A stretch of DNA of 64,000 bases, from assembly GCA_903883965.1 (NCBI GenBank), contig CAISCU010000005.1:26818-90817 (forward strand), in the 5' to 3' direction. This DNA is from an uncultured Bacteroidota bacterium (GTDB lineage Bacteria > Bacteroidota > Bacteroidia > UKL13-3). Of the stretch, positions 3,331 through 64,000 are shown one piece after another. The stretch's first letter is position 1. Every line of letters starts with the position of its first letter. Under the pieces are notes generated by a model. The model worked only from the letters and a program-made list of their open reading frames with translations, did not search any database and had not been told where the DNA came from. Made by a program: the position numbers and the translations under genes.

Positions 3331-3380
3331 AGGCCATCCATATTTTGTAAACACAAAAAAAATAACCATTTTGCATAGGC

Positions 3381-4904: not shown

Positions 4905-4932
4905 AAAAACCGGCCTGAGCCGGTTTTAATTT
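4905..4932. terminator. Bidirectional rho-independent terminator between convergent GH3 and FKBP genes
   Basis: AAAAAAACCGGC-CTGA-GCCGGTTTT: a GC stem flanked by an A-run on one side and a T-run on the other, sitting between the stops at 4904 (+) and 4931 (-). Confidence 0.6.
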
Positions 4933-25498: not shown

Positions 25499-27049
25499 AT
25501 GCTAATTCGAACATTTGGAAGTGCAGTGTATGGAGTGAGTGCAGTAACCATTACCATCGAAGTAAATGCCAACCCTGGCAACGGAATTGGGTATTTTTTG
25601 GTGGGATTACCAGATAGTGCAGTCAAAGAAAGTCAACAAAGAATAGAGAGTGCCATCAAGTACAATGGCTTTCAGTTACCCCGACAAAAAGTGGTTACCA
25701 ATATGGCTCCTGCCGACATTAGAAAAGAAGGCAGTGCCTATGATTTGCCATTGGCAGTTGGTTTTTTGGCAGCTACTGAACAAATTGATAGCAGTCGTTT
25801 AGAAAAAATCATCATCATGGGTGAATTGGCATTGGATGGCAGTTTAAACCCCATTAAAGGGGCTTTGCCTATTGCCATTCAAGCCAGAAAAGAAGGTTTT
25901 ACAGGTTTGATAGTACCTGCTCAAAATGCCAGAGAAGCAGGCATTGTAAACAATTTAAATGTGTATGGTGCAGAAACCTTAGCTCAGGTAATTGATTTTT
26001 TAAATGGCAAAGAAGAAGTTTTACAACCTGTTACAGTAGATACCCGAACTGAATTTGAACAGAACCAAATTCAACTCAAAGATGATTTTGAAGATGTACG
26101 CGGTCAGGAAAATATCAAACGTGCATTGGAGATTGCAGCAGCTGGTGGGCACAATGTAATATTGATTGGGCCTCCAGGAGCCGGAAAAACCATGCTGGCT
26201 AAGCGTTTGCCAGGTATTTTACCACCCTTGTCTTTGCAAGAGGCATTGGAAACTACCAAAATACATTCGGTGGCGGGTAAATTGCCCAAAGAGGCTTCTT
26301 TAATTTATACCCGGCCTTTTAGAAGCCCTCATCATACAATTTCTGATGTGGCCCTGGTAGGCGGGGGAACACATCCACAACCAGGCGAAATTTCTTTGGC
26401 CCACCATGGGGTGTTATTTTTAGATGAGTTGCCAGAATTTAAACGAACAGTTTTAGAGGTGATGCGTCAGCCATTAGAAGAAAGAAAAGTAACGGTTTCA
26501 AGGGCTAAATTTTCTATTGAATATCCTGCCAGTTTTATGCTGGTAGCTAGCATGAACCCTTGCCCATGCGGCTATTTCAACCATCCTGAAAAAGAATGTA
26601 CCTGCCCGCCCGGAACGGTTCAAAAATACATGGGCAAAATATCAGGCCCTTTGATGGACAGAATTGACATTCACATAGAAGTTACTCCTGTCAATTATGA
26701 TTTGCTTACATCGAACCGAAAAGCAGAAAACAGCAGTACCATTCGCAACAGGGTACAACAAGCAAGAGCCATTCAAAACCAACGCTACCAAGCCTTTGAT
26801 GACATTCATTGCAATGCCCAAATGAGCAGTACCCAAGCCAGAGAGTTTTGCGCATTGAACCCCATTGGGGCACAATTGTTAAAAACAGCCATGCAACGTT
26901 TGCAATTGTCGGCAAGGGCTTATGACCGCATTTTAAAAGTAGCCAGAACCATCAGCGATTTAGCGGGTAGCGAGCAAATTTTACCTGAGCATTTGGCAGA
27001 AGCCATTCAATACCGAAGTTTGGATAGAGCCGCTTGGGGTGGTAATTAA
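25499..27049 (+). CDS. comM: YifB/ComM family Mg-chelatase-like AAA+ ATPase
   Basis: N-terminal Lon-like domain, Walker A (GPPGAGKT) and a C-terminal ChlI-like region, 516 aa. Confidence 0.85.
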   Translation: MLIRTFGSAVYGVSAVTITIEVNANPGNGIGYFLVGLPDSAVKESQQRIESAIKYNGFQLPRQKVVTNMAPADIRKEGSAYDLPLAVGFLAATEQIDSSRLEKIIIMGELALDGSLNPIKGALPIAIQARKEGFTGLIVPAQNAREAGIVNNLNVYGAETLAQVIDFLNGKEEVLQPVTVDTRTEFEQNQIQLKDDFEDVRGQENIKRALEIAAAGGHNVILIGPPGAGKTMLAKRLPGILPPLSLQEALETTKIHSVAGKLPKEASLIYTRPFRSPHHTISDVALVGGGTHPQPGEISLAHHGVLFLDELPEFKRTVLEVMRQPLEERKVTVSRAKFSIEYPASFMLVASMNPCPCGYFNHPEKECTCPPGTVQKYMGKISGPLMDRIDIHIEVTPVNYDLLTSNRKAENSSTIRNRVQQARAIQNQRYQAFDDIHCNAQMSSTQAREFCALNPIGAQLLKTAMQRLQLSARAYDRILKVARTISDLAGSEQILPEHLAEAIQYRSLDRAAWGGN

Positions 27050-45341: not shown

Positions 45342-45386
45342 TTTGAATGTAAAATACGGCGCAGGCTTTGCCTGCGCCGTATTTTT

Positions 45387-46858: not shown

Positions 46859-47734
46859 TTACTCTTGGTATTGAAGCTGTGAATCTGATTCATGGATAGC
46901 CCAAATATCCATGTACACATTTCCTTGTTGGTTGTAATACTGGTGTAAGCTTTCAAACAAGTGTTTGTCGTGCTTGGTCAAGGTTAATAAGTACCTGCCA
47001 TGGTTGTCAAATATAACCCATTTGTCATAACCTAAATCCACTAAGAAATCAAAAATAGCTGGGCCATTTTCATTCTGTTTGGCAAGGTAAAACGGATCGT
47101 ACTCGAAAAATATACTGGCTTTTGATTGCCTTAAAAAAGTTGCAGCACCTCGTATAATTTTGTTGTCAAAACCATCCGTATCAATTTTAAGTAATTTGGC
47201 ATTGGCAAATGCAGGATGTTTTTCTATTACAGATGAAATGGTTGCAATAGCCAAACCAGTTACATCTTCTTCTAAGTATGCAGTGCCCAATTGGTTAACT
47301 GGTTTCACCTTAGTAACAGTTTCTCCAACAAATGAGGCTTCTATAGTTATATCATGTAAGTTTTTGCTGTTTTTATCCAGTAGGGGTAAAAATTTAGGAT
47401 TGCCTTCTATACACAAAATAGGTGCTTGAATGCGGTGTTGCACAATGGCGGCAGAATCGCCCACATTTGCACCTACGTCAATAACAGAAAAATGCGGATA
47501 TTTTTGGGCTATTATGCTAGCAACTTGTCCTAGGTTTTGACTATAGCTTGGAAATTGTTTTAAATTAAAGGGTAAATCATGGCTCAAATTCATGTCAATA
47601 ATTTGTCCATGGTAATTCCATTGAATAATTGGATCTGCTATTTTTAAATAAACCAATCGCAAAAGGGCAAAACACTTTTGACTGTATTTTCCTTTTGCGC
47701 GTAGCAATTGATTGAATATAAATTGAGCCAACAT
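46859..47734 (-). CDS. FkbM family methyltransferase
   Basis: FkbM pattern: Gly-rich VIDVGANVGDS..., ..CIEGNP... and LLKIDTDGFD.KII.GA (cf. family fDvGAniG ... lKiDvEGaE). Confidence 0.7.
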   Translation of the reverse strand: MLAQFIFNQLLRAKGKYSQKCFALLRLVYLKIADPIIQWNYHGQIIDMNLSHDLPFNLKQFPSYSQNLGQVASIIAQKYPHFSVIDVGANVGDSAAIVQHRIQAPILCIEGNPKFLPLLDKNSKNLHDITIEASFVGETVTKVKPVNQLGTAYLEEDVTGLAIATISSVIEKHPAFANAKLLKIDTDGFDNKIIRGAATFLRQSKASIFFEYDPFYLAKQNENGPAIFDFLVDLGYDKWVIFDNHGRYLLTLTKHDKHLFESLHQYYNQQGNVYMDIWAIHESDSQLQYQE

Positions 47735-47735
47735 C

Positions 47736-48656
47736 TTATAAGAAATTACTTAATGGAGCCATATCTCCAGTGCTTACATTCACCACCAATTTATCTTTTG
47801 CTTTCCAAATGGCTTGGGCGTCTGCAGTTAATGTTAGATTGCCAGATGCATCTCTGTTTTGTCTGAATCGGGCAGCTACATAACCTTGCTCTGAGCTCAT
47901 GGCAGGAAATGCACCCAACTTATCTTTTCTTACAAAATAGGCATTGTTACCATTGGTATTGCTGCCCACAAAACTGTAACCTTTTTTTTCTGCCAATTCA
48001 CACATGGCTTTTAAAGAAGCGCCAAAATACAAATTACTGTAATGGGCATTTGTTACATAGAATTGATCGTCATACGGAACGCTAATAGCAGCTTTGTTGC
48101 CAAACATGCTATTGTATTCCATAATTACAATTTGAGGTTGAACAATGGTTAAACACTCCCAAATCCAGTAATCGTTTCCATCAATATCTATGTGTAAAAT
48201 ACCTAACTCACCACTAAAACCAGCAGCTTCGATGGCTTGATTGATATTGTTTTTTGTTACAAACAATGGTATAGCTGTTAAGTCATATTTCCAGCTGATG
48301 CTGTCGTTTTTAACAAATTCCATGTTTTGAGCAGATCCATCAAAAATGAGCCCTTTCCAGTTGTTATTGATCAATAAAAAACGGGTATTTGCTTCTAAAT
48401 AATTGCCCACGCCAAACTCAATGAATGTTTGTTGGGAAATGGGTAGCTGGTGAATCAAATATTGAATAATTCCGTCATCGCCCCACTGAGAAAATGCTGA
48501 AAACTCTACAGTTCTAAAGTCTTGAACAGGCCCTTTCAATGACATAATTTGTTTAACCATGGGTTGAGCCGATAGTACTTTTATTTTTTCGAGCTCTTCT
48601 CTAACATAAGCTCCTATTTTTTTGCTACCAATGAGTTGATGAAAAAATTTCTTCAC
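47736..48656 (-). CDS. FkbM-like methyltransferase-fold protein (divergent paralogue)
   Basis: Weaker match to the same pattern (IEFGVGNYLEANT; GLIFDGS..N.EF..N; ILHIDIDGNDYWIWE..; QIVIMEYN). GTG start. Confidence 0.45.
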   Translation of the reverse strand: MKKFFHQLIGSKKIGAYVREELEKIKVLSAQPMVKQIMSLKGPVQDFRTVEFSAFSQWGDDGIIQYLIHQLPISQQTFIEFGVGNYLEANTRFLLINNNWKGLIFDGSAQNMEFVKNDSISWKYDLTAIPLFVTKNNINQAIEAAGFSGELGILHIDIDGNDYWIWECLTIVQPQIVIMEYNSMFGNKAAISVPYDDQFYVTNAHYSNLYFGASLKAMCELAEKKGYSFVGSNTNGNNAYFVRKDKLGAFPAMSSEQGYVAARFRQNRDASGNLTLTADAQAIWKAKDKLVVNVSTGDMAPLSNFL

Positions 48657-49561
48657 GTTTTAAAAATTAACTTCTTGAATTTTTGCCAGGCAAAATAAGC
48701 AATTGTAGGATTAAATACTTTTAAAATAGTGAATTCATCTGCAGCAATAACTGCTTGCTTGTTACTTGGATGTTTAATTGCTGCCAGCGAATGTGTTTGT
48801 AATGCAGCTACTGCGTGGTTGGGGTTTTTGGTATTCAAGGCCAATGCATCAAAACCAATATTGCTCACTAAATTTTTATTGGGTAAAATACTCAGCCCAT
48901 TGTTGTTCCAACAGGCAAAAGTCCATTGGTAATCCCAGGTTGCCAATTGCTGGTGATAGGTTTTATCAAAAATTTGTTTCCAAATTTTTTGCATGCGGTT
49001 ATTAGTATATATCTGCTTTAACTGATTGGATTTTAAAAAAGCCGGATATGTTTTCATGTCTACATCGTAATGTTTCCAAGCCCTTTTCCAGGTGGCAAAA
49101 CCCCAAATATGATTCAAGTGAGAGAAATAATAATCGCCATCACCCCATGTTTTACCAAATTGAAAATTGTTTCCAGAAATATGCATGATTTGTTCATCAG
49201 TTGCATATTTATGAAGCAATTGTTCGCAAAAGCCAAAAAAACTCAAATCAGGCAAACAGTCGTGTTCAAAAATGATTCCTTGCTCCTCGTTTTCAAAGAG
49301 CCAATGAATGCCTCTGCCTATGGCTATTCGAGGGCCAAAGTTTGCTGTTTCAAACAAAAAATGTACCTGACATGGCCAATCAATGTGTTTTTGTATGCTT
49401 TGCTGAACGCTTAAAAGTTCTGCTGCTTCATGTGGATGGCTCTGCCTGGGTCCGTCTGAATAAATATATAATTTCTGAACCCCAGCTTGTTTGATCCTAG
49501 ACAAAACCTGCAAGGCGGTATCGCTGCGGTTAAAAATAATCAGAAGTACAGGAGTTTGCAT
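48653..49561 (-). CDS. putative nucleotide-diphospho-sugar transferase (HlpA-like / GT-A-like)
   Basis: N-terminal VLLIIFNRSD.ALQVLSRI......KLYIYSDGPR pattern that I recall from HlpA-like glycosyltransferase-fold proteins in Bacteroidota polysaccharide loci. It overlaps the downstream gene by 4 bp. Confidence 0.35.
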   Translation of the reverse strand: MQTPVLLIIFNRSDTALQVLSRIKQAGVQKLYIYSDGPRQSHPHEAAELLSVQQSIQKHIDWPCQVHFLFETANFGPRIAIGRGIHWLFENEEQGIIFEHDCLPDLSFFGFCEQLLHKYATDEQIMHISGNNFQFGKTWGDGDYYFSHLNHIWGFATWKRAWKHYDVDMKTYPAFLKSNQLKQIYTNNRMQKIWKQIFDKTYHQQLATWDYQWTFACWNNNGLSILPNKNLVSNIGFDALALNTKNPNHAVAALQTHSLAAIKHPSNKQAVIAADEFTILKVFNPTIAYFAWQKFKKLIFKT

Positions 49562-49608
49562 GTACAGTGTTATGTGCTATTGGTACGCAAAGAAAGATGT
49601 CAAAACCC

Positions 49609-50802
49609 TTAAAACCAAAGCAAATCGTTGAGCGCATCTTTTAAAGCTTCAACATCTTGCAAACGTGCATAGTTGTCCATGTTGGAAATAGAATAAGGTA
49701 AATCTAAACTACTTGGTTTGTTAAGAATTTCTAATGCTTTTAATTGATCATCTATACTTGATTCTACGGCAATGCCTGTATGGAATGTTTCAACCAACCT
49801 GCCCTGAAATTGGTTAGATTGGCCAATAACTGGTTTGTGAAAAAACGCTGCTTTGCTTAATAAAAATGATGGAACACTTTCTTTTTCTTCATTGAGGTAA
49901 CAGACATCAAAACTTTGAATGATATTGTTTACCTCTTCACTACTTTCAACACGCATTGGAGCAATATAGTGGTTGGATTTATTCTTGTTTAACAGCTGCT
50001 CCAAAACCTGCCTGCTATTTTTGTTCTTAGCTGTAGCTGTTAAATTGCCAGTACACACAAAAAAGTAATCTGTTTCAGGGGCTTGAGAAACCATTTCTAG
50101 AAACCCAGAAGCTTCTTCATTTTCAAGCAAAACAGTTCCTACAACCATTCTGTTCCCAGCCATTTTACGAATGGTATTGGACAAGTTATTTGGTTTTTTA
50201 TGGAGACTCCAATCTGTTACATCGGGCATTACCACCACTTTTTTGTAGATTCTACTTTTTAATTCTTGGCTTTTAAAACGATCTAAAATTGCCGCTCCCA
50301 CACAATTATTGGCTAGAAATAAATAGTCAGGATCTTTAATAGAAGGGTCTACTCCAGTTTTAAGATTTTTTTTGTATAAATGTGCAGTATGGATAAACAA
50401 GCCGCTCCAAGGATATTTAAAAGAAGCGTCCATGATACTTTTCCCGTTTGCAGCAGCAATCCATTCATCAACCGGACAAAAAAATACAAAATCAATCTGA
50501 GTTTGCATGGTTTTCTCGGTTTGTTTCAAGCGGCGGTTTAATTTGATCCAGCTGAATGTAGCGGTTGTTAGGCCCATGTTTTCAAATGAGATAGCGGTCT
50601 CATCTAATGGGAAACACCTAAAATCTCTTGCCTTAAACGGCAGTATTTTTAGCAAATACTCGTTGACAATCAGCCAATCAGGACTAAAAATGAATACTGT
50701 TTTGTTCATTTCTAGTAAGGCTTTTGCGTATTGCATGGCATAAGTTCTATACCTAAAAGAACTTCTAGGGAATACCAATGCTACACAATTAACTTGATTC
50801 AT
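49609..50802 (-). CDS. hypothetical protein (397 aa), first gene of the FkbM/HlpA-like cluster
   Basis: ATG start with a clean intergenic region upstream. I recognise no motif; it is possibly a glycosyltransferase-fold protein. Confidence 0.35.
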   Translation of the reverse strand: MNQVNCVALVFPRSSFRYRTYAMQYAKALLEMNKTVFIFSPDWLIVNEYLLKILPFKARDFRCFPLDETAISFENMGLTTATFSWIKLNRRLKQTEKTMQTQIDFVFFCPVDEWIAAANGKSIMDASFKYPWSGLFIHTAHLYKKNLKTGVDPSIKDPDYLFLANNCVGAAILDRFKSQELKSRIYKKVVVMPDVTDWSLHKKPNNLSNTIRKMAGNRMVVGTVLLENEEASGFLEMVSQAPETDYFFVCTGNLTATAKNKNSRQVLEQLLNKNKSNHYIAPMRVESSEEVNNIIQSFDVCYLNEEKESVPSFLLSKAAFFHKPVIGQSNQFQGRLVETFHTGIAVESSIDDQLKALEILNKPSSLDLPYSISNMDNYARLQDVEALKDALNDLLWF

Positions 50803-50953
50803 GCCACAAATTTCTTGAAAGCCAATGCGATACCCTTTTTATTTTCTAAACATACACACACTCATATTCAGCATAATTGCACAGGAAAAGACACTTTTTT
50901 ACACTTTTTTCGTTTTTTTTTATCAAAAGGCTTTTCCTTTTTAATTAATTTTC

Positions 50954-50961
50954 TACTTTTG
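50954..50961 (+). promoter_or_regulatory. Bacteroidota -7 promoter motif (TACTTTTG) for tRNA-Gln
   Basis: Exact match to TAnnTTTG, 11 nt upstream of the mature tRNA 5' end. Confidence 0.35.
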
Positions 50962-50972
50962 CACACCTCAAT

Positions 50973-51045
50973 TGACCGATGGTGTAACTGGCAACACGTC
51001 TGATTTTGGTTCAGAAGAGTCCAGGTTCGAAACCTGGTCGGTCAA
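50973..51045 (+). tRNA. tRNA-Gln (anticodon UUG)
   Basis: Hand-folded cloverleaf: acceptor TGACCGA/TCGGTCA with the U1:A72 pair typical of bacterial tRNA-Gln; D-stem GTGT/ACAC; anticodon stem TCTGA/TCAGA with loop TTTTGGT (U33, anticodon TTG); T-stem CCAGG/CCTGG with loop TTCGAAA; 73 nt, no encoded CCA. Confidence 0.85.
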
Positions 51046-51091
51046 CAAAATGCAAGCCACGACTGTGGCTTGCATAATTTTTAAACAAAAA

Positions 51092-52039
51092 ATGGTACGC
51101 AACCAGGTTAAAATATTTTCGGGTACAAATTCCCGTTATTTGGCAGAATCAATTGCTCAATCTTTTGGTCTGGAACTCGGCGACTGTACTATCAGTAGAT
51201 TCAGCGATGGGGAATTCCAACCCAATTTCAACGAATCGGTTAGGGGTTGCGATGTATTCATAGTACAATCAACCTTTTCAAACTCAGACAACTTAATGGA
51301 ACTATTGCTCATGATTGATGCCGCAAAAAGAGCTTCTGCGCATTACATTACAGCTGTTATTCCATATTATGGGTTGGCCAGACAAGATAGAAAAGACAAA
51401 CCAAGGGTTTCAATTGGGTCTAAGGTGGTTGCAGATATGTTAACCGTAGTGGGTGCAAGTAGGGTAATTACCATGGACTTACACGCTCCTCAGATTCAAG
51501 GTTTTTTTAAAATTCCATTAGACCACTTAGATCCTTCCATTGTATTTTTACCTTATATGAGGGCGCTCAATTTTGGAAAAGATGTCATTATTGCATCTCC
51601 AGATATGGGTTCTTCAGCCAGGGCTAGAATTTATGCCAAGGCATTGGGTTGTGACATGGTTATTGTAGACAAAGAAAGAAGAAGAGCCAATGAAATAGCC
51701 TCAATGAACCTCATTGGAGACGTTCAAGGCAAACAAGTGATGATGGTAGACGATATCATTGACACTGGAAATACATTGGCAAAAGCAGCACAATTGCTCA
51801 AAGATAAAGGGGCTGTAAGTGTAAGAGCTATGTGTACACACCCTGTTTTGAGTGGTAAGGCTTATGAAGTAATTGAACAAAGTGTTATTGATGAGCTAGT
51901 GGTATGTGATACCATTCCATTGGCAAAACAAAGTAACAAAATAAAAGTATTATCGACGGCCAAGCTTTTTGCTGACGCCATCCGTAATATAACTGAACAT
52001 GGTTCTATCAGTTCTTTATTCGAAATACCGAGTAAATAA
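51092..52039 (+). CDS. prs: ribose-phosphate pyrophosphokinase
   Basis: The start is refined to the ATG at 51092 (MVRNQVKIFSGTNSRYLAESIA...) because the listed ORF runs through the tRNA. PRPP-binding motif (VMMVDDIIDTGNTL) and a flexible-loop region. Confidence 0.85.
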   Translation: MVRNQVKIFSGTNSRYLAESIAQSFGLELGDCTISRFSDGEFQPNFNESVRGCDVFIVQSTFSNSDNLMELLLMIDAAKRASAHYITAVIPYYGLARQDRKDKPRVSIGSKVVADMLTVVGASRVITMDLHAPQIQGFFKIPLDHLDPSIVFLPYMRALNFGKDVIIASPDMGSSARARIYAKALGCDMVIVDKERRRANEIASMNLIGDVQGKQVMMVDDIIDTGNTLAKAAQLLKDKGAVSVRAMCTHPVLSGKAYEVIEQSVIDELVVCDTIPLAKQSNKIKVLSTAKLFADAIRNITEHGSISSLFEIPSK

Positions 52040-52810: not shown

Positions 52811-53374
52811 TTGAAATATTTAATTGTAGGTTTAGGCAATCCGGGCAATGAATACAAACATACCCGGCACAATATAGGATTTGACATTGCAGATGCATTG
52901 GCAGCCCAACACGGCGCCATGTTTTCAGTACAGAAATTGGCAGAAGTAGCAAATTATGCTTTTAAAGGAAGGCAGGTATGTTTAATCAAGCCCATTACTT
53001 TTATGAATTTGAGTGGAAAAGCATTGCGCTATTGGATGCAAGAAATGCAAGTGCCATTGGCCAATGTATTGGTATTGGTTGATGATTTGGCAATTGATTT
53101 TGGTAAAATTCGGATCAAACCTTCTGGGAGTGATGCTGGTCATAACGGGCTTAAAAATATTTGTGAATGTTTACAAACCAAAGATTATCCAAGACTCAGG
53201 TTTGGAATTGGTAGCAATTTTCACAAAGGCAAACAAGTAGAATATGTATTGGGTAACTGGACCCCAAATGAAGCAGCTGAATTGCCTTTATTAATAGATA
53301 CAGCTGTAAAGGCCTGTGATAGTTTTGTATTTAAGGGTCTGGCATTAACCATGAATGAATTCAGTAAAAAATGA
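52811..53374 (+). CDS. pth: aminoacyl-tRNA hydrolase
   Basis: (M)KYLIVGLGNPGNEYKHTRHNIGF with the catalytic His; the TTG start is the first start after an in-frame TAG. Confidence 0.85.
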   Translation: MKYLIVGLGNPGNEYKHTRHNIGFDIADALAAQHGAMFSVQKLAEVANYAFKGRQVCLIKPITFMNLSGKALRYWMQEMQVPLANVLVLVDDLAIDFGKIRIKPSGSDAGHNGLKNICECLQTKDYPRLRFGIGSNFHKGKQVEYVLGNWTPNEAAELPLLIDTAVKACDSFVFKGLALTMNEFSKK

Positions 53375-54675
53375 GCAATACACCCAATAAATACCTTTCT
53401 AACAGCCTTTGGATGTTGCTTGAAAAATCGGCCCGAATTATATCAGGCATCTTAGTTGGTATATTGGTTGCAAGGTATTTAGGTGCCGACCAGTATGGGC
53501 TCATCAATTATGCATTGAGTATCATGGCCATTTTTACAATCCTTTCTACATTGGGTTTGGAAAACATTGTTGTCAGAGAATTAATTACCAGAAAAGAAGA
53601 CAAAAATCAAATACTAGGAACAGGTTTTATACTCAGGTTGGTAGGCTCATTCTTGGTATTGGGTGGCGCAACTGCTTATTCCATGTTAAGAGATACACCA
53701 GACAAAACCTTGATTGTGTTTATTGTAAGCTTAACAGTGGTTTTACAATCGTTTGTAGTAGTTGATTTGTACTTTCAATCTATTTTAAAAGGTAAGTATA
53801 CCGCCATTGGTCAAGTGGTTTCATTGTTGGTTTCATCGGTAGTTAAATTGACTTTAATTTATATACAGGCAAGCGTATATTGGTTTGCAGCGATGGCTGT
53901 TTTTGAAGCGTTTATTACCTTTTTATTGCAGTGGCGTTTCTTTACAAATGAAGGCGAACGCATTTGGAACTGGTCATTTTCTTTTAAAGAAGCCAAAGGT
54001 TTGTTATACCATAGTTTGCCATTGATTATTGGTTCGTTTGTTTTGATGTTGTACCAAAAATCTGGTGAAATTTTAGTTTTACGTTTTTTAAGAGATTTAA
54101 ATTTAGTAGGTCAGTATTCGGCTGCTGTAAGAATGAGTGAAGCCTCCTATTTTATTCCGGTTGCTATCTGTGCCGCTGTTTTTCCAGGAATTATCAATAA
54201 CAGAAGCAATCCCGAATTGCAACTTAAGCGCTACACGCAATTGTGTGCCATTATGTTGTGGTCGGCTTTAATCATTGCAATTGGAGGAACCCTTTTTGGT
54301 GATTTTGTAATTAGTACTTTGTTTAAAGAAAAATACAACCTTTCTCCAGCTGTTTTCAAAATACATATTTGGGGTGCTATCCCTGTTTTTTATGGAACTG
54401 CTTGGGGCACTTGGATGTTGGCACAAAACAAACAACGAATTGTCATTTATTTTCAGGTTTGGAATTTGATGGTGTATTTACTAACCAGCTTTTATTTTAT
54501 TCCAAAGTACCAGCTAAATGGGATGGCCTACGCCGTAGTGTTCACGTATTTTACAGGTATGTTTTTTACTTTGTTTTTGTTTCAGCCTGCACAAAGTTTT
54601 CGCATTTTCATGAAAGCACTTCATCCCAAACAATTAATTGATGTTTTCAAATACGGCAAATCCCAATTAAATTAG
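53371..54675 (+). CDS. oligosaccharide flippase family protein (Wzx-like, MOP superfamily)
   Basis: 434 aa with ~12 TM helices and an N-terminal ..LWMLLEKSARIISGILVGILVARYLG...YG pattern typical of polysaccharide-biosynthesis flippases. Its ATG overlaps the pth TGA (ATGA). Confidence 0.65.
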   Translation: MSNTPNKYLSNSLWMLLEKSARIISGILVGILVARYLGADQYGLINYALSIMAIFTILSTLGLENIVVRELITRKEDKNQILGTGFILRLVGSFLVLGGATAYSMLRDTPDKTLIVFIVSLTVVLQSFVVVDLYFQSILKGKYTAIGQVVSLLVSSVVKLTLIYIQASVYWFAAMAVFEAFITFLLQWRFFTNEGERIWNWSFSFKEAKGLLYHSLPLIIGSFVLMLYQKSGEILVLRFLRDLNLVGQYSAAVRMSEASYFIPVAICAAVFPGIINNRSNPELQLKRYTQLCAIMLWSALIIAIGGTLFGDFVISTLFKEKYNLSPAVFKIHIWGAIPVFYGTAWGTWMLAQNKQRIVIYFQVWNLMVYLLTSFYFIPKYQLNGMAYAVVFTYFTGMFFTLFLFQPAQSFRIFMKALHPKQLIDVFKYGKSQLN

Positions 54676-54693
54676 CGAGAACCCAATTGTAGT

Positions 54694-55998
54694 ATGCTTA
54701 TTTTTTGTCCGCAAGAATCTGATCGTTTTACATACCTATTAAATGAACTGCTTGTACGCAGAATGGGCATATCTTATACCATTACAGACAATGAAGCCTA
54801 CTTTATTAAATCGGCAGCAGTTAAGTTAAACTACAGCAATCAGGTGTTTCCAAATTGTGTAAATATACCCTTACACGGATTGCTTTTTGAACAAGATATA
54901 GTTGAACAAGACATTCAAGTATCTGCCCATAACAAATGGTTAAAAATGTTTTTTCAATTAACAATTGAAGCACCTGTTGGCATACATGAAAAATATGTTC
55001 TATTGCCTTTTGACCTATTTTCTGCAGCTTTTTATTTATTGTCTAGGTATGAAGAAGCCTTACCCAAAAGAACAACAGATAAACACGGAAGATATGCATC
55101 TGAAAATTCGTTGGCAGTACAACATAATTTTATCAAGCTGCCATTGGTTGATTGTTGGATTCAAGTACTCAAGACGTTGATTTCAGAACATTTTCCAGCA
55201 CAAAGCTTTCTTGCACATCAAACAAAATTTATCAATACCATAGACATTGATTTTCTCTATAAATTCAAAGGATTGACCTTTACCAACAAAGTAAAAAAAT
55301 CGCTAGGTTTTATGGTTAGAAATCAAATCAATCAAATTAAAAAGCTTTGGTTTCCGGTGGACCCAGATCCTTACGATACCTTTGATCAGTTGGTATTGCC
55401 TGATATTGAAACCCTGTTTTTTGTACTCATGGCCAATGGTTCTAAATTTGATCAAAATATTCACCTAGATAGTATAGAATTACAAACAGTACTCAAAGGC
55501 CTGAGTCTATCAAATCCTATTGGCATTCATCCTTCTTTACAATCGCACCATTTTCCAAAACAAATTCAACTTGAAATCAGTAAACTGAGTGCTGTTGTTC
55601 AAAAAGAAATATACTTGTCTAGACAGCATTTTCTCAAATTCAAATGGCCTGATACTTACCGTAAATTAACTGAGGCAGGTATTCAAGAAGATTACTCAAT
55701 GGCCTATCCTGATACTTTGGGTTTTAGGGCGTCAACAGCCTTTCCTTTTAGAGCGTTTGACATTAAAAACAATTGTGAATTGCCCATTGTTATTCACAGT
55801 CCTTGTGTAATGGATGTGACCCTTAAAAACCAATTGAAACTATTGCCAAATGAGGCGGTATTAGCTATTGCTGAGTTAAAAAATGCAGTAGAACAAGTAG
55901 GTGGTGAAATGATAGGTATTTGGCACAATTCTTCTTTTGACAGGGATCAGGGCTGGAATGGTTGGGAGATGGCTTACCAATCATTGTACAGCAAATAA
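54694..55998 (+). CDS. hypothetical protein (434 aa), possibly a polysaccharide deacetylase-like partner of the flippase
   Basis: No confident motif. It lies 18 bp downstream of the flippase on the same strand. The C-terminal half has His-containing motifs (IGIHPS; SRQHFLKF) reminiscent of deacetylase-like barrels, but this is weak. Confidence 0.3.
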   Translation: MLIFCPQESDRFTYLLNELLVRRMGISYTITDNEAYFIKSAAVKLNYSNQVFPNCVNIPLHGLLFEQDIVEQDIQVSAHNKWLKMFFQLTIEAPVGIHEKYVLLPFDLFSAAFYLLSRYEEALPKRTTDKHGRYASENSLAVQHNFIKLPLVDCWIQVLKTLISEHFPAQSFLAHQTKFINTIDIDFLYKFKGLTFTNKVKKSLGFMVRNQINQIKKLWFPVDPDPYDTFDQLVLPDIETLFFVLMANGSKFDQNIHLDSIELQTVLKGLSLSNPIGIHPSLQSHHFPKQIQLEISKLSAVVQKEIYLSRQHFLKFKWPDTYRKLTEAGIQEDYSMAYPDTLGFRASTAFPFRAFDIKNNCELPIVIHSPCVMDVTLKNQLKLLPNEAVLAIAELKNAVEQVGGEMIGIWHNSSFDRDQGWNGWEMAYQSLYSK

Positions 55999-56055: not shown

Positions 56056-57522
56056 ATGAATGGCAAACTAAAAATTTACGATACACTCAGCAAATCTCTT
56101 AAAGTATTTGAACCAATTCATGCACCCTTGGTAGGAATGTATGTTTGCGGTCCTACGGTATACAGCAATGTGCATTTAGGAAATGTAAGAACCTTTTTGT
56201 CTTTTGACATTGTATTCAGGTACCTTACTCATTTGGGATACAAAGTCAGATATGTGCGCAACATTACAGATGCCGGACACTTAGAAAATGATGCCGATGA
56301 AGGAGAAGATAAAATTGGTAAAAAAGCAAAGTTAGAGCAGTTAGAACCAATGGAAATTGTTCAACGCTATACCACAGATTTTAGAGTGGTAATGCAACAA
56401 TTTAACAACCTGCCTCCTAGTATAGAACCAACAGCTACTGGGCATATCATAGAACAAATAGAATTGACCAAAAAAATCATGGCCAATGGCTTTGCTTATG
56501 AGTCTAACGGGAGCGTTTATTTTGACGTGGAAAAATTTTCAGCCCAATACCCATACACAGAATTGTCTGGTAGAAATTTAGAAGAGTTACTCAACAATAC
56601 CAGAGAATTGGGTGGACAATCAGAAAAAAGAGGCAGACTCGATTTTGCACTTTGGATCAAAGCGAAACCAGAACATATTATGAGGTGGCCTAGCCCATGG
56701 GGAGATGGTTTTCCTGGATGGCATTTAGAATGTTCAGCCATGAGTAGTAAATACCTTGGAGAACATTTTGATATACACGGCGGAGGAATGGATTTAATTC
56801 CTACCCACCATACCAATGAAGTTGCTCAACATTTGGCTTGTTTTCATCAAAAGCCAGTTAATTATTGGATACATACCAATATGCTTACAGTAAACGGGCA
56901 AAAAATGAGTAAAAGTTTAGGGAATTCTTTTTTACCACACGAGTTGTTTTCAGGTTCTCATGCGCTTTTGGAGCGAGGTTACAGCCCAATGGTAGTACGT
57001 TTTTTTATGCTTCAGGCACATTACAGAAGTACCTTAGATTTTAGCAATGAAGCACTTCAAGCTGCAGAAAAAGGGTTTACCCGTTTAATGAATGCTTGTA
57101 AAATTGTTGCTAGTTTACCCGTGAGTAATCAAAATGAGGTAGATGCCCAAGCCATTCAACAACAGGTTTATCAGTCTATGAACGAAGATTTCAATACGCC
57201 TTTGGCATTGGCAGCTTTGTTTGAAGGAGTAAGGTCTATCAATGCCGTACAAGACGGTAAGCTGAAAATTGATGAAAACAACAAGGCCATCTTGGTAAAA
57301 CTTTACAACGAACTGGTGTTTGATGTTCTCGGATTGCAGACAGAAAATACCCAGAACGAAAACCTCATAGATGGCGTCATGCAAATGGTTTTAGAACAAC
57401 GTACAATGGCCAAGCAGCGCAAAGATTTTGCTGCATCAGATGCAATCAGAGATCAGTTAAAAGTTTTAGGCATTGAAGTAAAAGATGGCAAAGAAGGCAG
57501 TACTTATCAAATTAATTTGTAA
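56056..57522 (+). CDS. cysS: cysteine--tRNA ligase
   Basis: Class I HIGH-type motif (CGPTVYSNVHLGN), Zn ligands, KMSKS and a C-terminal DALR-like domain. Confidence 0.9.
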   Translation: MNGKLKIYDTLSKSLKVFEPIHAPLVGMYVCGPTVYSNVHLGNVRTFLSFDIVFRYLTHLGYKVRYVRNITDAGHLENDADEGEDKIGKKAKLEQLEPMEIVQRYTTDFRVVMQQFNNLPPSIEPTATGHIIEQIELTKKIMANGFAYESNGSVYFDVEKFSAQYPYTELSGRNLEELLNNTRELGGQSEKRGRLDFALWIKAKPEHIMRWPSPWGDGFPGWHLECSAMSSKYLGEHFDIHGGGMDLIPTHHTNEVAQHLACFHQKPVNYWIHTNMLTVNGQKMSKSLGNSFLPHELFSGSHALLERGYSPMVVRFFMLQAHYRSTLDFSNEALQAAEKGFTRLMNACKIVASLPVSNQNEVDAQAIQQQVYQSMNEDFNTPLALAALFEGVRSINAVQDGKLKIDENNKAILVKLYNELVFDVLGLQTENTQNENLIDGVMQMVLEQRTMAKQRKDFAASDAIRDQLKVLGIEVKDGKEGSTYQINL

Positions 57523-57523
57523 C

Positions 57524-58525
57524 ATGAGCTATTCATTTTTTAGTATTAAAAATACGCTTTTCTTAGTTGTACTTTTCCAAATGATGGCATGTAGCAACAA
57601 TGAGTCAAATCATAAAAAAGCAGCCACACAGGCCACGCAAGCAACATATAATCAGGTATCACCAGTATTCAATGCAGATTCTGCTTACGAATTTGTGCAA
57701 CACCAGGTAGGTTTTGGACCAAGATTTACCAACTCAGAAGGACATACCAATTGTGGCAATTGGCTCGAAAAGCAATTTGGACTGTATGCCGATAAAGTCA
57801 GTGTTCAGAAAGCAGATGTTAAAAATTTTGATGGCAACATGTTGCACATTAAAAACATAACAGCTTCTTTTAATCCAAATGCTAAAACCCGAATTTTAAT
57901 TGCTGCCCATTGGGACAGCCGACCATACGCTGATCAAGACCTTGATGAAACAAATAAAAATGAGCCCATTTTAGCAGCTGATGATGCAGCTAGTGGTGTT
58001 GCTGTGATGTTAGAAATGGCAAGGGTTTTGTCTCAGAAGCAAGCTACAGTTGGTGTGGATCTAATTTGTTTTGATGCAGAAGATTTGGGTAAACCACAAT
58101 TTGAAGATTCGTATTGTTTGGGTTCTCAATATTGGGCTAAAAAGGCTAAGGAAACAGGTTATCAAGCAAAATATGGCGTATTATTAGACATGGTAGGTGC
58201 CAGAAATGCCAAATTTGTATGGGAAGGTTTTAGTGTAAAATATGCAGAACCTATTATTAGAAAAGTTTGGGATCAGGCTGTACAATTGGGCTTCAGTAAT
58301 CAGTTTTATTATTACCGTGGCGGCGGCATTACAGATGACCATTATTATGTAAATACCATTGCAAATATTCCAATGATTGATATCATCCATTTTTCTGATG
58401 AAACCAAAACAGGTTTTCCTGCTCACTGGCATACGCTTTCAGACAACATGGCTGTAATAGATAGGGTAACACTCAAAGCCGTTGGACAAACTTTGTTGGA
58501 AATCATCTACAAAGAGCAAAAATGA
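57524..58525 (+). CDS. M28 family peptidase / glutaminyl-cyclase-like lipoprotein
   Basis: The start is refined to the ATG at 57524 (signal ..LVVLFQMMAC lipobox). M28 metal-ligand context (IAAHWDSRPYADQD; DAEDLG; DD.ASGVAV). It starts 1 nt after the cysS stop. Confidence 0.65.
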   Translation: MSYSFFSIKNTLFLVVLFQMMACSNNESNHKKAATQATQATYNQVSPVFNADSAYEFVQHQVGFGPRFTNSEGHTNCGNWLEKQFGLYADKVSVQKADVKNFDGNMLHIKNITASFNPNAKTRILIAAHWDSRPYADQDLDETNKNEPILAADDAASGVAVMLEMARVLSQKQATVGVDLICFDAEDLGKPQFEDSYCLGSQYWAKKAKETGYQAKYGVLLDMVGARNAKFVWEGFSVKYAEPIIRKVWDQAVQLGFSNQFYYYRGGGITDDHYYVNTIANIPMIDIIHFSDETKTGFPAHWHTLSDNMAVIDRVTLKAVGQTLLEIIYKEQK

Positions 58526-62599: not shown

Positions 62600-64000
62600 T
62601 TACCTAATCAAAGTTAAAGTGGAGTGATAAGATCTTGGATCTGCTCCACTTTTTTTCTTTACTGTCATCAACACAAAGTAAATGCCTTCGCTTGCATCTG
62701 CTCCTGATTGGTCTTTCCCATTCCAGGCAAAATTTGCTTGAGAAGATTCATACATCAATTGCCCCCATCTGTTAAAGATTGCAATTTTAACTTCGTCGCA
62801 TTGGTTGATCAGGCCATCAGATTCAAAAACATCATTGAGCTTATCACCGTTTGGAGAAAACACATTGGGCATTTTGATGTCGGCAGCAGAATCGGGTAAG
62901 TTGACAATTGCAAAAGCAGTATCTGCACAAAGAGTTCCAGGCATCACAATCATCAAAACAGAGTCTCCGTAATACTTACCTTCTATTTTTGTTGTAAAGA
63001 AATCGTCGGTAATAGTTTTGCCATCTGGCAACACCCAATTGATGGGGTCTGTAATTTTAGGATCCTTTTGAAATGAAAAAACTGCTGTACAAGTATCTAT
63101 GGTAAATTCAAATTTGGCGCTTTTTATTTGAAAATCGAATTTCAAAGCAGCATTGCTACACCTTGGACTCGGGTTTTTTACACTATAGGCATTTGGAGTT
63201 GTTTTTAAATCCGATATAAAATGTACCCCTTCAACATTTGGGCAGCTTGCACACATGCTTTGGTAAACAATTCCATGTTTGTCGAACCTACTGGTTCCAC
63301 CGTCAACATGGTCTCCTGATGCATTGGGATTGGCCCCTCCTAAAAAAGTTCCGTACAACAATGAAGATGCATTTTTTTCTAAACACATTAGGTAAAAATC
63401 TGAACCATCTGTTTGTGTTTGAAAGGCATCTGTACTCACTTGCATTCCGACTGTTTGAGAAGTGCTAATGCCACTGGTACTTCCGCCCCAAGAACTCACG
63501 TAAATTCTTCCGCAATCATCAACCATAAATGCATTGATGGTGACGTCAATACTTGGTCTGCCAGAACCAAATACCGTTGACCAATTCAATGTTTTTAAAT
63601 CATTGCTAAAGCAGCTGATAAATTGGTGACTGCCGTTGTTTTTATAAACATTTCCTTGAACAGGCATATTGCCTTCGCTATGCCCTACAACAACTACTTG
63701 GTTGTTTGGGTCAATATCTAAAGAGTAAATTTGGTCGTAAAAATTGGTTCCCCAGTAAGTTGCGGCTATTAAATTGGTAGCATTGCGATTGAGTTTGCCA
63801 ATGAAACCGTCTACATCTCCATTGTTGTTGGCCTGGTAGGCCCCTGCAGTAACAGGATCTAGGTTTCTGCTATTTGTGCCACCTGAAACAAACAATTCGT
63901 TTTGCTTGGTTAAATCTATGCTGTAGAGTGCGTCTATCCCTGAACCACCAATATAGGTTGACCATTCTAAATTGGTTAATGCACTGTCAAACTGAAAAAT
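62600..64000 (-). CDS. T9SS type B C-terminal sorting domain protein with beta-propeller-like repeats, 5' partial (continues beyond the window)
   Basis: The C-terminus matches the type-B CTD pattern (FSPNGDKLNDVF....IFNRWGQLMYES....W.G........GIYF......TLIR). The frame stays open from the listed TTG at 63895 to the window edge at 64000. Repeated YIGGS.ID / GT.FGG blocks are reminiscent of SBBP beta-propeller repeats. Confidence 0.7.
   Translation of the reverse strand: MFQFDSALTNLEWSTYIGGSGIDALYSIDLTKQNELFVSGGTNSRNLDPVTAGAYQANNNGDVDGFIGKLNRNATNLIAATYWGTNFYDQIYSLDIDPNNQVVVVGHSEGNMPVQGNVYKNNGSHQFISCFSNDLKTLNWSTVFGSGRPSIDVTINAFMVDDCGRIYVSSWGGSTSGISTSQTVGMQVSTDAFQTQTDGSDFYLMCLEKNASSLLYGTFLGGANPNASGDHVDGGTSRFDKHGIVYQSMCASCPNVEGVHFISDLKTTPNAYSVKNPSPRCSNAALKFDFQIKSAKFEFTIDTCTAVFSFQKDPKITDPINWVLPDGKTITDDFFTTKIEGKYYGDSVLMIVMPGTLCADTAFAIVNLPDSAADIKMPNVFSPNGDKLNDVFESDGLINQCDEVKIAIFNRWGQLMYESSQANFAWNGKDQSGADASEGIYFVLMTVKKKSGADPRSYHSTLTLIR
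62616..62660 (+). terminator. Putative sucD terminator hairpin (lies inside the 3' coding end of the convergent T9SS gene)
   Basis: AAAGTGGAG-(19-nt loop containing the sub-hairpin AGATC..GATCT)-CTCCACTTTTTTT. It is followed by a T7 run on the plus strand, but overlaps the last ~20 codons of the minus-strand gene. Confidence 0.35.

What the first reader, a model, noticed from the sequence alone, without database searches (positions are those of the whole stretch)
46859..50972. Candidate methylated-glycan locus transcribed divergently from tRNA-Gln: two tandem FkbM-family methyltransferases, an HlpA-like sugar transferase and an unknown protein
Four consecutive minus-strand genes (49609..50802 unknown; 48653..49561 HlpA-like GT-fold; 47736..48656 FkbM-like; 46859..47734 FkbM) have 4-nt and 1-nt junctions and share a 170-bp promoter region with tRNA-Gln. 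Tandem FkbM paralogues next to glycosyltransferase-fold proteins suggest O-methylated sugar synthesis, for example a modified LPS/EPS residue or the glycan of T9SS cargo. None of the four proteins has a characterised orthologue that I recognise, and the first gene (397 aa) has no recognisable motif at all.
Basis: partly seen in the sequence, partly recalled or inferred. Interest (0 to 1): 0.5.

Follow-up and report, generated by a model that had tools for sequence, protein, structure and literature searches.

The report
Reduced methylated-glycan gene cluster in Bacteroidota
Four back-to-back genes next to a glutamine tRNA encode two sugar-adding enzymes and two methyl-adding enzymes; they are a native, trimmed-down copy of a surface-sugar locus shared by a group of freshwater Bacteroidota, not imported DNA, so the finding is real but fairly ordinary.

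Summary
Four minus-strand ORFs lie at the stated coordinates, with a 47-nt gap, a 4-nt overlap and a 1-nt spacer, and sit 170 bp from a divergent tRNA-Gln.

- G4 is a bona fide FkbM methyltransferase.
- G3 has a class-I SAM methyltransferase fold with only weak FkbM affinity, so it is not a close paralogue of G4.
- G2 is a GT-A enzyme related to GT13 (GnT-I/POMGnT1).
- The "motif-less" G1 has a GT-B fold and is linked to GT4. Its subfamily has replaced the canonical donor-phosphate lysine loop (KRKG→ENEE) and the GHH loop.

The accessory-island idea fails. Composition is native and there is no att repeat. The genes lie on the tRNA's 5′ side, and G1 sits beside prs in 41 of 42 informative genomes.

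In about 17 relatives the same genes frame a larger collinear locus: G1, T9SS cargo, two more methyltransferases, GT2, G2, G3, G4 or another methyltransferase, then CHU_C cargo. The window holds a reduced form of it.

The most likely function is cytoplasmic assembly and O-methylation of a small lipid-linked glycan, exported by the nearby conserved Wzx. The target (protein O-glycan or LPS/EPS) is unresolved.

The parts
49609..50802 (-). G1: soluble GT-B-fold protein, a divergent branch of GT4-type glycosyltransferases. It is the first gene of the locus and the conserved anchor next to tRNA-Gln/prs.
48653..49561 (-). G2: GT-A glycosyltransferase of the GT13 / GnT-I-like kind, with an E99-H100-D101 variant of the EDD motif.
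   Evidence: The broadened family profile A8 hits POMGnT1 5ggf at E=2.9e-5 over 150 residues and GnT-I 1fo8/1foa at E=0.23 on the EDD segment. Of 21 members, 9 hit PF00535 and 8 hit PF03071 GNT-I. E99 and D101 are invariant. Sources name homologues 'nucleotide-diphospho-sugar transferase', 'GT2' or 'HlpA-like'.
47736..48656 (-). G3: class-I SAM-dependent methyltransferase with FkbM-like motifs, from a very large, highly conserved family with no Pfam assignment.
46859..47734 (-). G4: FkbM-family SAM-dependent methyltransferase. It is the last enzyme gene of the locus and is swapped for an MTS-type methyltransferase in some relatives.
   Evidence: PF05050 E=7.2e-9 (36.4 bits, cut-off 22.7) and TIGR01444 E=2.2e-14 (54.1 bits, cut-off 37.7). 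An MTS-type methyltransferase takes this position in L004, L009, L012 and L022.
50803..50972 (.). 170-nt divergent spacer between G1 and tRNA-Gln. It contains a Bacteroidota -7 box (TACTTTTG, 50954..50961, plus strand) for the tRNA.
   Evidence: No exact TAnnTTTG box was found on the minus strand for G1. No Rfam element.
50973..51046 (+). tRNA-Gln (ttg), a conserved neighbour. Its 3' end faces prs, away from G1-G4.
   Evidence: The tRNA is present at the junction in all 14 prs-adjacent loci that were scanned. A hairpin at 51050..51075 follows it.
53371..54675 (+). Wzx-type (MOP) flippase whose start overlaps the pth stop by 4 nt. It is the putative exporter of the lipid-linked glycan; this link is inferred, not shown.
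   Evidence: PF01943 E=4.7e-21 and PF13440 E=4.1e-19. It is found at this position in every relative with G1 identity of 41% or more that has enough flank, and in none of the 31-36% group, which also lacks a close G2-G4 block within about 10 kb (L052 has only a G2-like gene at 39%).
54694..55998 (+). DUF7033 protein, always paired with the Wzx gene. It may belong to the same pathway; its function is unknown.
   Evidence: PF23019 E=1.5e-29. No PDB sequence hit. Co-conserved with wzx.
45351..45385 (.). Strong bidirectional terminator-like hairpin after fumC. It is the first strong terminator-like site downstream of G1-G4 on the minus strand.
   Evidence: 16-bp stem with 9 GC pairs, flanked by A and T runs. 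The only minus-strand terminator-like site between G1 and fumC is a weak 8-bp one inside G2.

Best explanation
G1-G4 are a native, vertically inherited, reduced version of a glycan-assembly and methylation locus that is conserved in one lineage of (mostly freshwater) Bacteroidota.

All four proteins are soluble and act in the cytoplasm. G2 is a GT13-like GT-A enzyme that uses a nucleotide sugar and a metal through its E-x-D motif. G1 is a GT4-derived GT-B protein. Together they add sugars to a growing oligosaccharide, probably on a lipid carrier such as undecaprenyl phosphate. G3 and G4 are SAM-dependent methyltransferases that O-methylate specific sugar hydroxyls.

The finished unit is most likely flipped across the inner membrane by the Wzx-type flippase, which is encoded with a DUF7033 protein about 2.5 kb away beyond tRNA-Gln-prs-rplY-pth. 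It would then be attached to a surface acceptor. I favour protein O-glycans, including T9SS cargo, over LPS or EPS.

Shown: the folds and families of the four proteins, the conserved collinear locus, and native origin. Inferred: the lipid carrier, the use of the neighbouring Wzx, the order of the reactions, the sugars involved and the final acceptor.

G1's subfamily has lost two donor-binding signatures. It may therefore use an unusual donor, bind it differently, or act non-catalytically.
For: - Families and folds: G4 is FkbM. G3 has a class-I methyltransferase fold with intact SAM motifs. G2 is GT13/GT2-like. G1 has a GT-B fold and is linked to GT4.
- No TM segment in any of the four.
- Tight junctions, and no strong terminator before the hairpin after fumC.
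- About 17 species-level genomes (G1 36-61% identical) keep one same-strand order: G1 - (T9SS type-A cargo) - FkbM2 or MT23a - MT23 - GT2 - G2 - G3 - G4 or MTS-type methyltransferase - (CHU_C cargo). The window and its closest relatives (G1 82-91%; L001, L003, L059, and L058 with no G1 flank) hold the 4-gene form.
- In L052 (36%) a G2-like gene directly follows G1.
- G3 relatives in other phyla lie in classical polysaccharide loci next to GT1, GT2, DegT, GDP-mannose dehydratase, Wzt/ABC and class-I methyltransferase genes.
- wzx plus DUF7033 is found in every relative in the 41-96% range that has upstream flank, which are the genomes that carry the GT/methyltransferase block. It is absent in the 31-36% clade, which also lacks that block.
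- Literature: Bacteroidota O-glycosylation loci combine a wzx, conserved end GTs and a variable GT/methyltransferase middle, and the O-glycans are commonly methylated (PMC12871550, PMC6120980). T9SS cargo are the main O-glycoprotein class in T. forsythia (PMC8550257).
Against: - The 64-kb window has no initiating phosphoglycosyl transferase, Wzy, ligase or oligosaccharyltransferase, so the pathway is incomplete as seen.
- wzx is on the opposite strand, separated by a housekeeping operon, and translationally coupled to pth. Its link to G1-G4 rests on co-conservation that may reflect a single clade split.
- G1 lacks the canonical GT4 Lys loop and the GHH loop, so its catalytic competence is unproven.
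- In the 31-36% clade G1 stands alone among housekeeping genes, so it does not strictly need G2-G4.
- G2's fold was not confirmed by a structure model.
- The T9SS cargo genes are absent from this window's version of the locus.
Confidence: 0.6

Rival explanations
1. The product is an LPS O-antigen or core decoration, or an exopolysaccharide repeat unit, rather than a protein-linked glycan. The enzymology is the same but the acceptor differs.
For: G3 relatives in other phyla sit in O-antigen/EPS-type loci with Wzt/ABC transporters, DegT, GDP-mannose dehydratase, GT1 and GT2. FkbM-type and class-I methyltransferases are common in such loci (established knowledge). A GT9-like gene and a ManC-like gene lie elsewhere in the window.
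Against: No Wzy, Wzz or ligase near the locus. There is a Wzx without a polymerase, and relatives embed T9SS cargo genes in the locus. Both features look more like the oligosaccharide-type protein O-glycosylation loci of Bacteroidota (PMC12871550).
Confidence: 0.25
2. G1 is functionally separate from G2-G4. It would be a clade-wide core GT-B-fold protein, possibly non-catalytic or using a different substrate, that simply marks the edge of a variable region. Its contact with G2 here would result from deletion of the intervening genes.
For: G1 keeps its place beside tRNA-Gln/prs in 41 of 42 genomes, including 17 or more where only housekeeping genes follow it. In most relatives 1.6-7 kb of other genes separate G1 from G2. 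G1 has lost the KRKG and GHH donor-binding loops. The G1/G2 gap is 47 nt, whereas the G2/G3/G4 junctions are 4-nt and 1-nt.
Against: Wherever the GT/methyltransferase block exists near G1, it lies downstream on the same strand in the same order. In L052, an independent lineage, a G2-like gene directly follows G1. No terminator-like site lies between G1 and G2. G1 has 55 invariant columns, which implies a constrained and probably enzymatic function.
Confidence: 0.2
3. The cluster makes a cytoplasmic polymethylated oligo- or polysaccharide, analogous to the mycobacterial methylmannose polysaccharide made by a four-gene cluster (ManT, MeT1, pMeT3, MmpH), and not an exported glycan.
Against: Those fold hits are far down lists dominated by generic GT4 and class-I methyltransferase structures. 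There is no hydrolase counterpart. Relatives embed secreted T9SS cargo genes and keep a Wzx nearby. No sequence-level similarity to the MMP enzymes was detected.
Confidence: 0.07
4. The four genes are horizontally acquired accessory DNA inserted at the tRNA-Gln gene.
For: Only the tRNA adjacency itself, plus the patchy presence of G2-G4 among relatives.
Against: GC, GC3 and codon usage are within about 1 sd of the other window genes. No integrase was seen among the ORFs and flanking genes examined, and there is no att-like copy of the tRNA 3' end. The genes lie on the tRNA's 5' side, whereas integrative elements target the 3' end (established knowledge). G1 lies next to prs in 41 of 42 genomes down to 31% identity, and the tRNA-Gln between them is present in all 14 such loci scanned. 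The variable part lies distal to G1, not at the tRNA.
Confidence: 0.03

Closest known systems
Bacteroidota general protein O-glycosylation loci (B. fragilis LFG; the T. forsythia 27-kb cluster with wzx, gtfSMILE and mtfJOY)
   Same: Same parts list: a Wzx flippase, GT-B and GT-A glycosyltransferases and SAM methyltransferases. Same design of conserved end genes with a variable GT/methyltransferase middle, and the same placement beside translation housekeeping genes. The products there are methylated O-glycans found largely on T9SS cargo (PMC12871550, PMC6120980, PMC8550257).
   Different: Here wzx is on the other strand, separated by tRNA-Gln-prs-rplY-pth and coupled to pth. The neighbours are pth and cysS, not metG. 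The GTs are a GT13-like enzyme and a motif-altered GT4 relative, and orthology to GtfL/GtfE could not be tested. The methyltransferases are FkbM-type or FkbM-like, at 291 and 306 aa, against 90 to 213 aa for MtfJOY. T9SS cargo genes are embedded in the relatives' loci.
CAZy GT13 (GnT-I, POMGnT1), as comparator for G2
   Same: Collinear motifs: beta1 'P-[IV]-L-...-N-R', 'DG', 'E-x-D' followed by 'F', and 'W-G-W'. The family profile matches POMGnT1 residues 210-352 at E=2.9e-5, and 8 of 21 members hit Pfam GNT-I.
   Different: G2 is bacterial, about 300 aa, and has no TM stem. Its motif is E-H-D rather than E-D-D. G2 alone hits no Pfam or PDB sequence. The donor sugar and the linkage are unknown.
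GT4 retaining glycosyltransferases (PimA, BshA, WaaG, PglA-type), as comparator for G1
   Different: G1 has 8-15% identity to these and no Pfam hit of its own. The canonical 'GR..KG' lysine loop is acidic (L-E-N-E-E). The N-terminal Gly/His loop is replaced by R13/R17. A lysine (K317) lies at or next to the second Glu of EX7E.
FkbM-family O-methyltransferases (PF05050/TIGR01444; e.g. FkbM of FK506 biosynthesis and NoeI of Nod-factor fucose methylation, both recalled from memory)
   Same: G4 meets both curated profiles. G3 shares the 'h-h-I-D-x-D-G' and 'E-Y' motifs in register.
   Different: G3 does not reach any curated threshold and forms its own very large, highly conserved family. No substrate is known for either protein.
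Mycobacterial methylmannose polysaccharide cluster (ManT, MeT1, pMeT3, MmpH)
   Same: A compact four-gene set combining a GT-B transferase with two methyltransferases, all soluble (PMC9883506).
   Different: There is no hydrolase here but there is a second GT. The only similarity is at generic fold level. The genomic context points to export (Wzx, T9SS cargo in relatives).

Membership tests
FkbM methyltransferase family (PF05050 / TIGR01444) - G4 | Score above the curated profile cut-offs | tested here: met
   PF05050 36.4 bits (cut-off 22.7) and TIGR01444 54.1 bits (cut-off 37.7).
FkbM methyltransferase family - G3 | Score above the curated profile cut-offs | tested here: not met
   G3 has no Pfam or NCBIfam hit. 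Only 9 of 30 homologues give weak PF05050 hits, the best at E=1e-3.
FkbM methyltransferase family - G3 | Profile-profile homology to FkbM proteins | tested here: inconclusive
   hhalign of A2 against A4 gives E=4.9e-4, probability 32%, with 106 columns in register including the IDxDG motif. Against G4 alone the probability is 0.5%.
Class-I SAM-dependent methyltransferases - G3 | Rossmann-like methyltransferase fold, motif I (E/D-x-G-x-G) and an acidic residue at the end of beta2 | tested here: met
GT-A / GT13 (GnT-I-like) glycosyltransferases - G2 | Sequence homology to GT13 or GT-A families | tested here: met
   Met at family-profile level only. A8 against POMGnT1 5ggf gives E=2.9e-5. 8 of 21 members hit PF03071 and 9 of 21 hit PF00535. 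G2 alone has no hit.
GT-A / GT13 - G2 | Metal-binding E-D-D / DXD motif | tested here: inconclusive
   G2 has E99-H100-D101. E99 and D101 are invariant, and the middle residue is D in distant members. Function was not tested.
GT-A / GT13 - G2 | GT-A fold in a 3D model | not tested
GT-B fold glycosyltransferases - G1 | Two Rossmann-like domains with GT-B topology | tested here: met
GT4 (Pfam Glycos_transf_1) - G1 | Pfam profile hit | tested here: not met
   G1 has none. 41 of its 59 remote relatives do hit PF00534, the best at E=3e-14.
GT4 - G1 | Conserved donor-diphosphate loop 'GR..KG' and the EX7E motif | tested here: not met
   The loop is L-E-N-E-E in G1, against [KR]-R-K-G in 41 to 50 of 55 remote relatives, and that motif aligns to GT4 'GRIRKTKG' and 'GRITRQKG'. 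K317 takes or abuts the position of the second Glu. This was read from alignments and not checked on coordinates.
Bacteroidota LFG-type O-glycosylation locus | A wzx flippase within the locus, next to metG | tested here: not met
   wzx (53371..54675) is on the opposite strand beyond tRNA-Gln-prs-rplY-pth and is flanked by pth and cysS, not metG.
Bacteroidota LFG-type O-glycosylation locus | Conserved end genes with a variable GT/methyltransferase middle | tested here: met
   G1 and G2-G3 are constant. The middle (cargo, FkbM2 or MT23a, MT23, GT2) and the last methyltransferase (G4 or MTS-type) vary.
Bacteroidota LFG-type O-glycosylation locus | Orthology of the terminal GTs to the LFG GTs (e.g. 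Tanf_01300/01305) | not testable with these tools
tRNA-linked genomic island | Atypical composition, integrase, att repeat of the tRNA 3' end, variable occupancy at the tRNA | tested here: not met
   Native GC, GC3 and codon usage. No repeat. The genes are on the tRNA's 5' side. G1 lies beside prs in 41 of 42 genomes, with the tRNA present in all 14 such loci scanned.

The most novel reading that the evidence does not exclude
G1-G4, together with the neighbouring Wzx/DUF7033 pair, are the stripped-down remnant of a lineage-specific glycosylation system. That system would decorate T9SS-secreted adhesin-like proteins (LamG, FG-GAP, PKD/CHU_C cargo encoded inside the locus in relatives) with a heavily O-methylated glycan. 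Its anchor enzyme G1 would be a neofunctionalised GT4 descendant that no longer binds a nucleotide-sugar diphosphate in the canonical way. It would use a different donor or act as a non-catalytic scaffold.
Probability: 0.15. Interest if true: 0.65.

Novelty: new member of a known kind. Interest (0 to 1): 0.35.

Why it matters
The result gives fold-level assignments to three protein families that current profile libraries miss.
- A bacterial GT13/GnT-I-like transferase family with at least 2388 clusters.
- A strikingly conserved FkbM-like methyltransferase family with at least 7971 clusters across phyla, always found in polysaccharide loci.
- A GT4 offshoot whose donor-binding loop has reversed charge.

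It also defines a conserved, methyltransferase-rich glycan locus in uncultivated freshwater Bacteroidota that is physically interleaved with T9SS cargo genes. If the glycan proves to decorate T9SS cargo, it would extend protein O-glycosylation biology beyond oral and gut Bacteroidota and offer candidate genes for the still poorly defined steps. As it stands, this is a plausible but uncharacterised surface-glycan operon and not a new kind of system.

Tried and rejected
- Single-sequence and first-round profile searches of G1, G2 and G3 against Pfam, NCBIfam and PDB sequences gave nothing or only spurious hits, such as de novo TIM barrels, ANP receptor and L21.
- hhalign of G3 against G4 alone, and of G2 against one or five neighbouring GT2 proteins, was not significant.
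- The AFDB50 fold library was unavailable.
- The sigma-70 promoter scan was no better than shuffles and does not suit Bacteroidota.
- Rfam found only the tRNA.
- No literature exists under 'HlpA-like'.
- I first thought G2-G3 was a universally conserved pair, because of adjacent locus tags. The metagenome scan rejected this: only 6 of 56 G3 loci have a close G2 immediately upstream, all from this clade.
- The tRNA-island idea was rejected.
- The MMP-like cytoplasmic polysaccharide idea is kept only as a low-probability rival.
- The genes missing from the reduced locus are not elsewhere in the window.

Full report
**Observation.**
- G1 49609..50802, 397 aa
- G2 48653..49561, 302 aa
- G3 47736..48656, 306 aa, GTG start
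- G4 46859..47734, 291 aa

The G1/G2 gap is 47 nt. G2 and G3 overlap by 4 nt (GTGA), and G3 and G4 are separated by 1 nt. tRNA-Gln(ttg) lies at 50973..51046 on the plus strand, which leaves a 170-nt divergent spacer. A Bacteroidota-type -7 box (TACTTTTG) sits 12 nt upstream of the tRNA, but I found no exact box for G1. No strong terminator-like site separates G1, G2, G3, G4 and fumC on the minus strand. The first strong hairpin is at 45351..45385, after fumC. The flanks are housekeeping genes: radA, a LysE-family gene and fumC on one side, and prs, rplY, pth, a Wzx-type gene, a DUF7033 gene and cysS on the other.

**G4.** G4 is a bona fide FkbM-family methyltransferase. PF05050 scores 36.4 bits against a cut-off of 22.7, and TIGR01444 scores 54.1 bits against 37.7.

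**G3.** G3 has no Pfam, NCBIfam or PDB sequence hit, yet its family is very large.

The affinity to FkbM is weak:
- 9 of 30 homologues hit PF05050, the best at E=1e-3.
- hhalign against G4 alone gives a probability of 0.5%.
- hhalign against a 13-member FkbM profile gives E=4.9e-4 and a probability of 32%, though the IDxDG and EY motifs align in register.

G3 is therefore a methyltransferase, but "tandem FkbM paralogues" overstates its relation to G4.

**G2.** G2 alone hits nothing, and profile comparisons with neighbouring GT2 proteins were not significant. I then added distant G2-like genes (21-28% identical) that lie near G3 relatives in other phyla. The broadened alignment shows ordered motifs: P-[IV]-L..NR, DGP, E-x-D..F, WGWATW, SWD..W and NIGFD..GTH.

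Its profile hits the GT13 enzyme POMGnT1 (5ggf) at E=2.9e-5 over 150 residues, and GnT-I (1fo8/1foa) at the EDD segment at E=0.23. Of the 21 members, 9 hit Pfam GT2 and 8 hit the GNT-I family. G2 is therefore a GT-A transferase of the GT13-like kind, with an E99-H100-D101 variant of the metal-binding motif.

The word-indexed search found only 23 clusters, all unnamed or named "hypothetical protein"; the named ones come from Bacteroidota MAGs. The exhaustive profile search found 968 representatives at E≤1e-3. Of 59 remote relatives, 41 hit Pfam Glycos_transf_1, and the broad profile aligns to solved GT4 chains (5i45 at E=4e-5, also 7mi0 and GlgM 6tvp).

In those alignments the superfamily's G-x-L-x-K-R-K-G lies on the canonical GT4 GR..KG loop. 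From established knowledge of GT4/GT5 enzymes, that loop contacts the donor diphosphate. G1's subfamily, together with intermediates P0265-P0269, has L-E-N-E-E at this position, and R13/R17 where 55 of 55 remote relatives have the histidine of G-H-[HR]. K317, which lies at or next to the second Glu of EX7E, is shared by the whole superfamily.

G1 is thus a GT4 descendant with a remodelled donor site, and possibly one with reversed charge. It has 55 invariant columns, which argues that it is functional, but its chemistry is open.

**Origin.** GC is flat across the region. GC, GC3 and codon usage of G1-G4 fall within about 1 sd of 29 other window genes. There is no att-like copy of the tRNA 3' end and no meaningful direct repeat. 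The genes lie on the 5' side of the tRNA, whereas integrative elements target the 3' end.

Across 47 species-representative genomes that carry a G1 relative (31-96% identity), 41 of the 42 with usable upstream flank have G1 divergently adjacent to prs-rplY. The one exception is L032. tRNA-Gln was present at the junction in all 14 such loci that I scanned. The accessory-island idea is therefore not supported.

**Locus architecture in relatives.** I used Pfam-annotated contigs and transferred their annotations by BLAST. About 17 genomes (G1 36-61% identical) share one same-strand order:

G1 - [0-2 T9SS type-A-CTD cargo genes, LamG or FG-GAP] - [a second FkbM or a Methyltransf_23 gene] - Methyltransf_23/11 - GT2 - G2 - G3 - [G4 or an MTS-type methyltransferase] - [PKD/LamG cargo with a CHU_C type-B CTD], followed in some genomes by fumC.

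The window and its nearest relatives (G1 82-91% identical in L001, L003 and L059; L058 lacks the G1 flank) have the reduced form, G1-G2-G3-G4-fumC. The missing genes are not elsewhere in the window. In L052 (36%) a G2-like gene follows G1 directly.

In the 31-36% clade, housekeeping genes follow G1 (a DedA/VTT-family gene, a TP_methylase-family (RsmI-like) gene, lnt, icd and metG). No close G2-G4 lies within about 10 kb there, and wzx/DUF7033 do not lie after pth. In every relative with G1 identity of 41% or more and enough flank, wzx plus DUF7033 follow pth as they do here. In the window, wzx overlaps the pth stop by 4 nt.

**G3 outside this clade.** Of 56 metagenome loci with enough flank, only 6 have a close G2 immediately upstream, and 3 of 53 have G4 immediately downstream. 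All of these come from the window's clade. Nine more have a distant G2-like gene within 6 kb.

Immediate neighbours of G3 relatives elsewhere are class-I methyltransferases (15 of 95), GT2 (7), DegT aminotransferases (6), GT1 (6), GDP-mannose dehydratases/epimerases (5), Wzt/ABC transporters (3) and hexapeptide acetyltransferases (3). Searches show the same. These are typical O-antigen or EPS loci.

**Mechanism.** The proteins have no TM-grade hydrophobic segment, so they should act in the cytoplasm. The best-supported reading is stepwise assembly of a small glycan by G2 and, presumably, G1, with O-methylation by G3 and G4. The glycan would be built on a lipid carrier and exported by the co-conserved Wzx.

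This parts list and layout match the Bacteroidota protein O-glycosylation loci: a wzx, conserved end GTs, a variable GT/methyltransferase middle, and methylated glycans (PMC12871550, PMC6120980). In T. forsythia, T9SS cargo are the main O-glycoprotein class (PMC8550257). Together with the cargo genes embedded in the relatives' loci, this makes protein O-glycosylation my preferred destination.

The fit is not complete. The locus fails the metG and in-locus-wzx criteria of LFG, and orthology of the GTs could not be tested. The window contains no initiating transferase, polymerase, ligase or OTase. An LPS or EPS destination, an independent role for G1, and a cytoplasmic MMP-like product (PMC9883506) remain as rivals.

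**Verdict.** This is a native, reduced member of a known kind of system, a glycan assembly and methylation cluster, built from three enzyme families that standard profiles miss. The most interesting loose ends are G1's remodelled donor site and the interleaving of the locus with T9SS cargo genes in relatives.

Noticed in passing
window 53371-55998 (+): A Wzx-type flippase gene overlaps the pth stop codon by 4 nt and is followed by a 434-aa DUF7033 protein. The pth-wzx-DUF7033-cysS order is kept in every relative with G1 identity of 41% or more that has enough flank. A flippase translationally coupled to a translation housekeeping operon is unusual. DUF7033 has no PDB sequence match.
   Followed up: partly
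window 50972-52039 (+); L001 8764-9831: The longest ORF for prs (355 aa, TTG start) runs across the tRNA-Gln gene, and the public gene call in the 91%-identical genome uses this over-extended form. The true start is probably the ATG at 51092 (316 aa), as in more distant relatives.
   Followed up: partly
window 51050-51075: A perfect 11-bp-stem hairpin (ATGCAAGCCAC-GACT-GTGGCTTGCAT) lies 4 nt after the tRNA-Gln 3' end and before prs. It could be a terminator or a processing signal that separates the tRNA from prs.
   Followed up: no
window 45351-45385: A strong palindromic hairpin (16-bp stem) flanked by A and T runs lies between the LysE-family gene and fumC. Both are on the minus strand, with the LysE-family gene just downstream of fumC. 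It looks like a bidirectional terminator, and weak sub-threshold Rfam hits overlap it.
   Followed up: no
L004, L055, L056 and about 12 other loci (e.g. L055 1886-6589 and 11877-19006): In relatives, T9SS cargo genes lie inside and directly after the GT/methyltransferase locus on the same strand: type-A Por_Secre_tail cargo with LamG or FG-GAP domains, and type-B CHU_C cargo with PKD or LamG domains. The last methyltransferase position alternates between an FkbM gene (G4) and an MTS-type gene, as in an allelic swap.
   Followed up: partly
G3 family (window 47736-48656 and P0024-P0143): This is a family of at least 7971 clusters spread across several phyla. It has no Pfam or NCBIfam model, members are about 50% identical between phyla, and 69 of 306 columns are invariant. 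That is unusually strong conservation for a glycan-locus methyltransferase and may point to a common, perhaps nucleotide-sugar-level, substrate.
   Followed up: partly
window 62600-63895 (-): A 431-aa ORF with a CHU_C type-B T9SS C-terminal domain. It is the only T9SS cargo-like gene I saw in the window, lies about 12 kb from the locus, and may be N-terminally truncated or mis-started (TTG).
   Followed up: no
window 15484-16572 (+) and 22449-23588 (-): A ManC-like nucleotidyl transferase (GDP-mannose pyrophosphorylase type) and a GT9 (heptosyltransferase-like) gene lie elsewhere in the window. Both are glycan-related but not linked to the locus.
   Followed up: no
L032 (JBMOGB010000131.1) 1-5595: This is the single exception to G1/tRNA-Gln/prs synteny. 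A 34%-identical G1 relative has 5.6 kb of upstream DNA with no tRNA and no prs or rplY.
   Followed up: partly
window 56056-58525 (+): The cysS ORF and the M28 peptidase ORF overlap by 38 nt as listed. The peptidase start is probably further downstream, since the related genome aa against 346 aa here.
   Followed up: no
window 26001-27000: A local GC rise to 0.437 against a background of about 0.37, within or near the ORF 25499..27049. I did not examine it.
   Followed up: no
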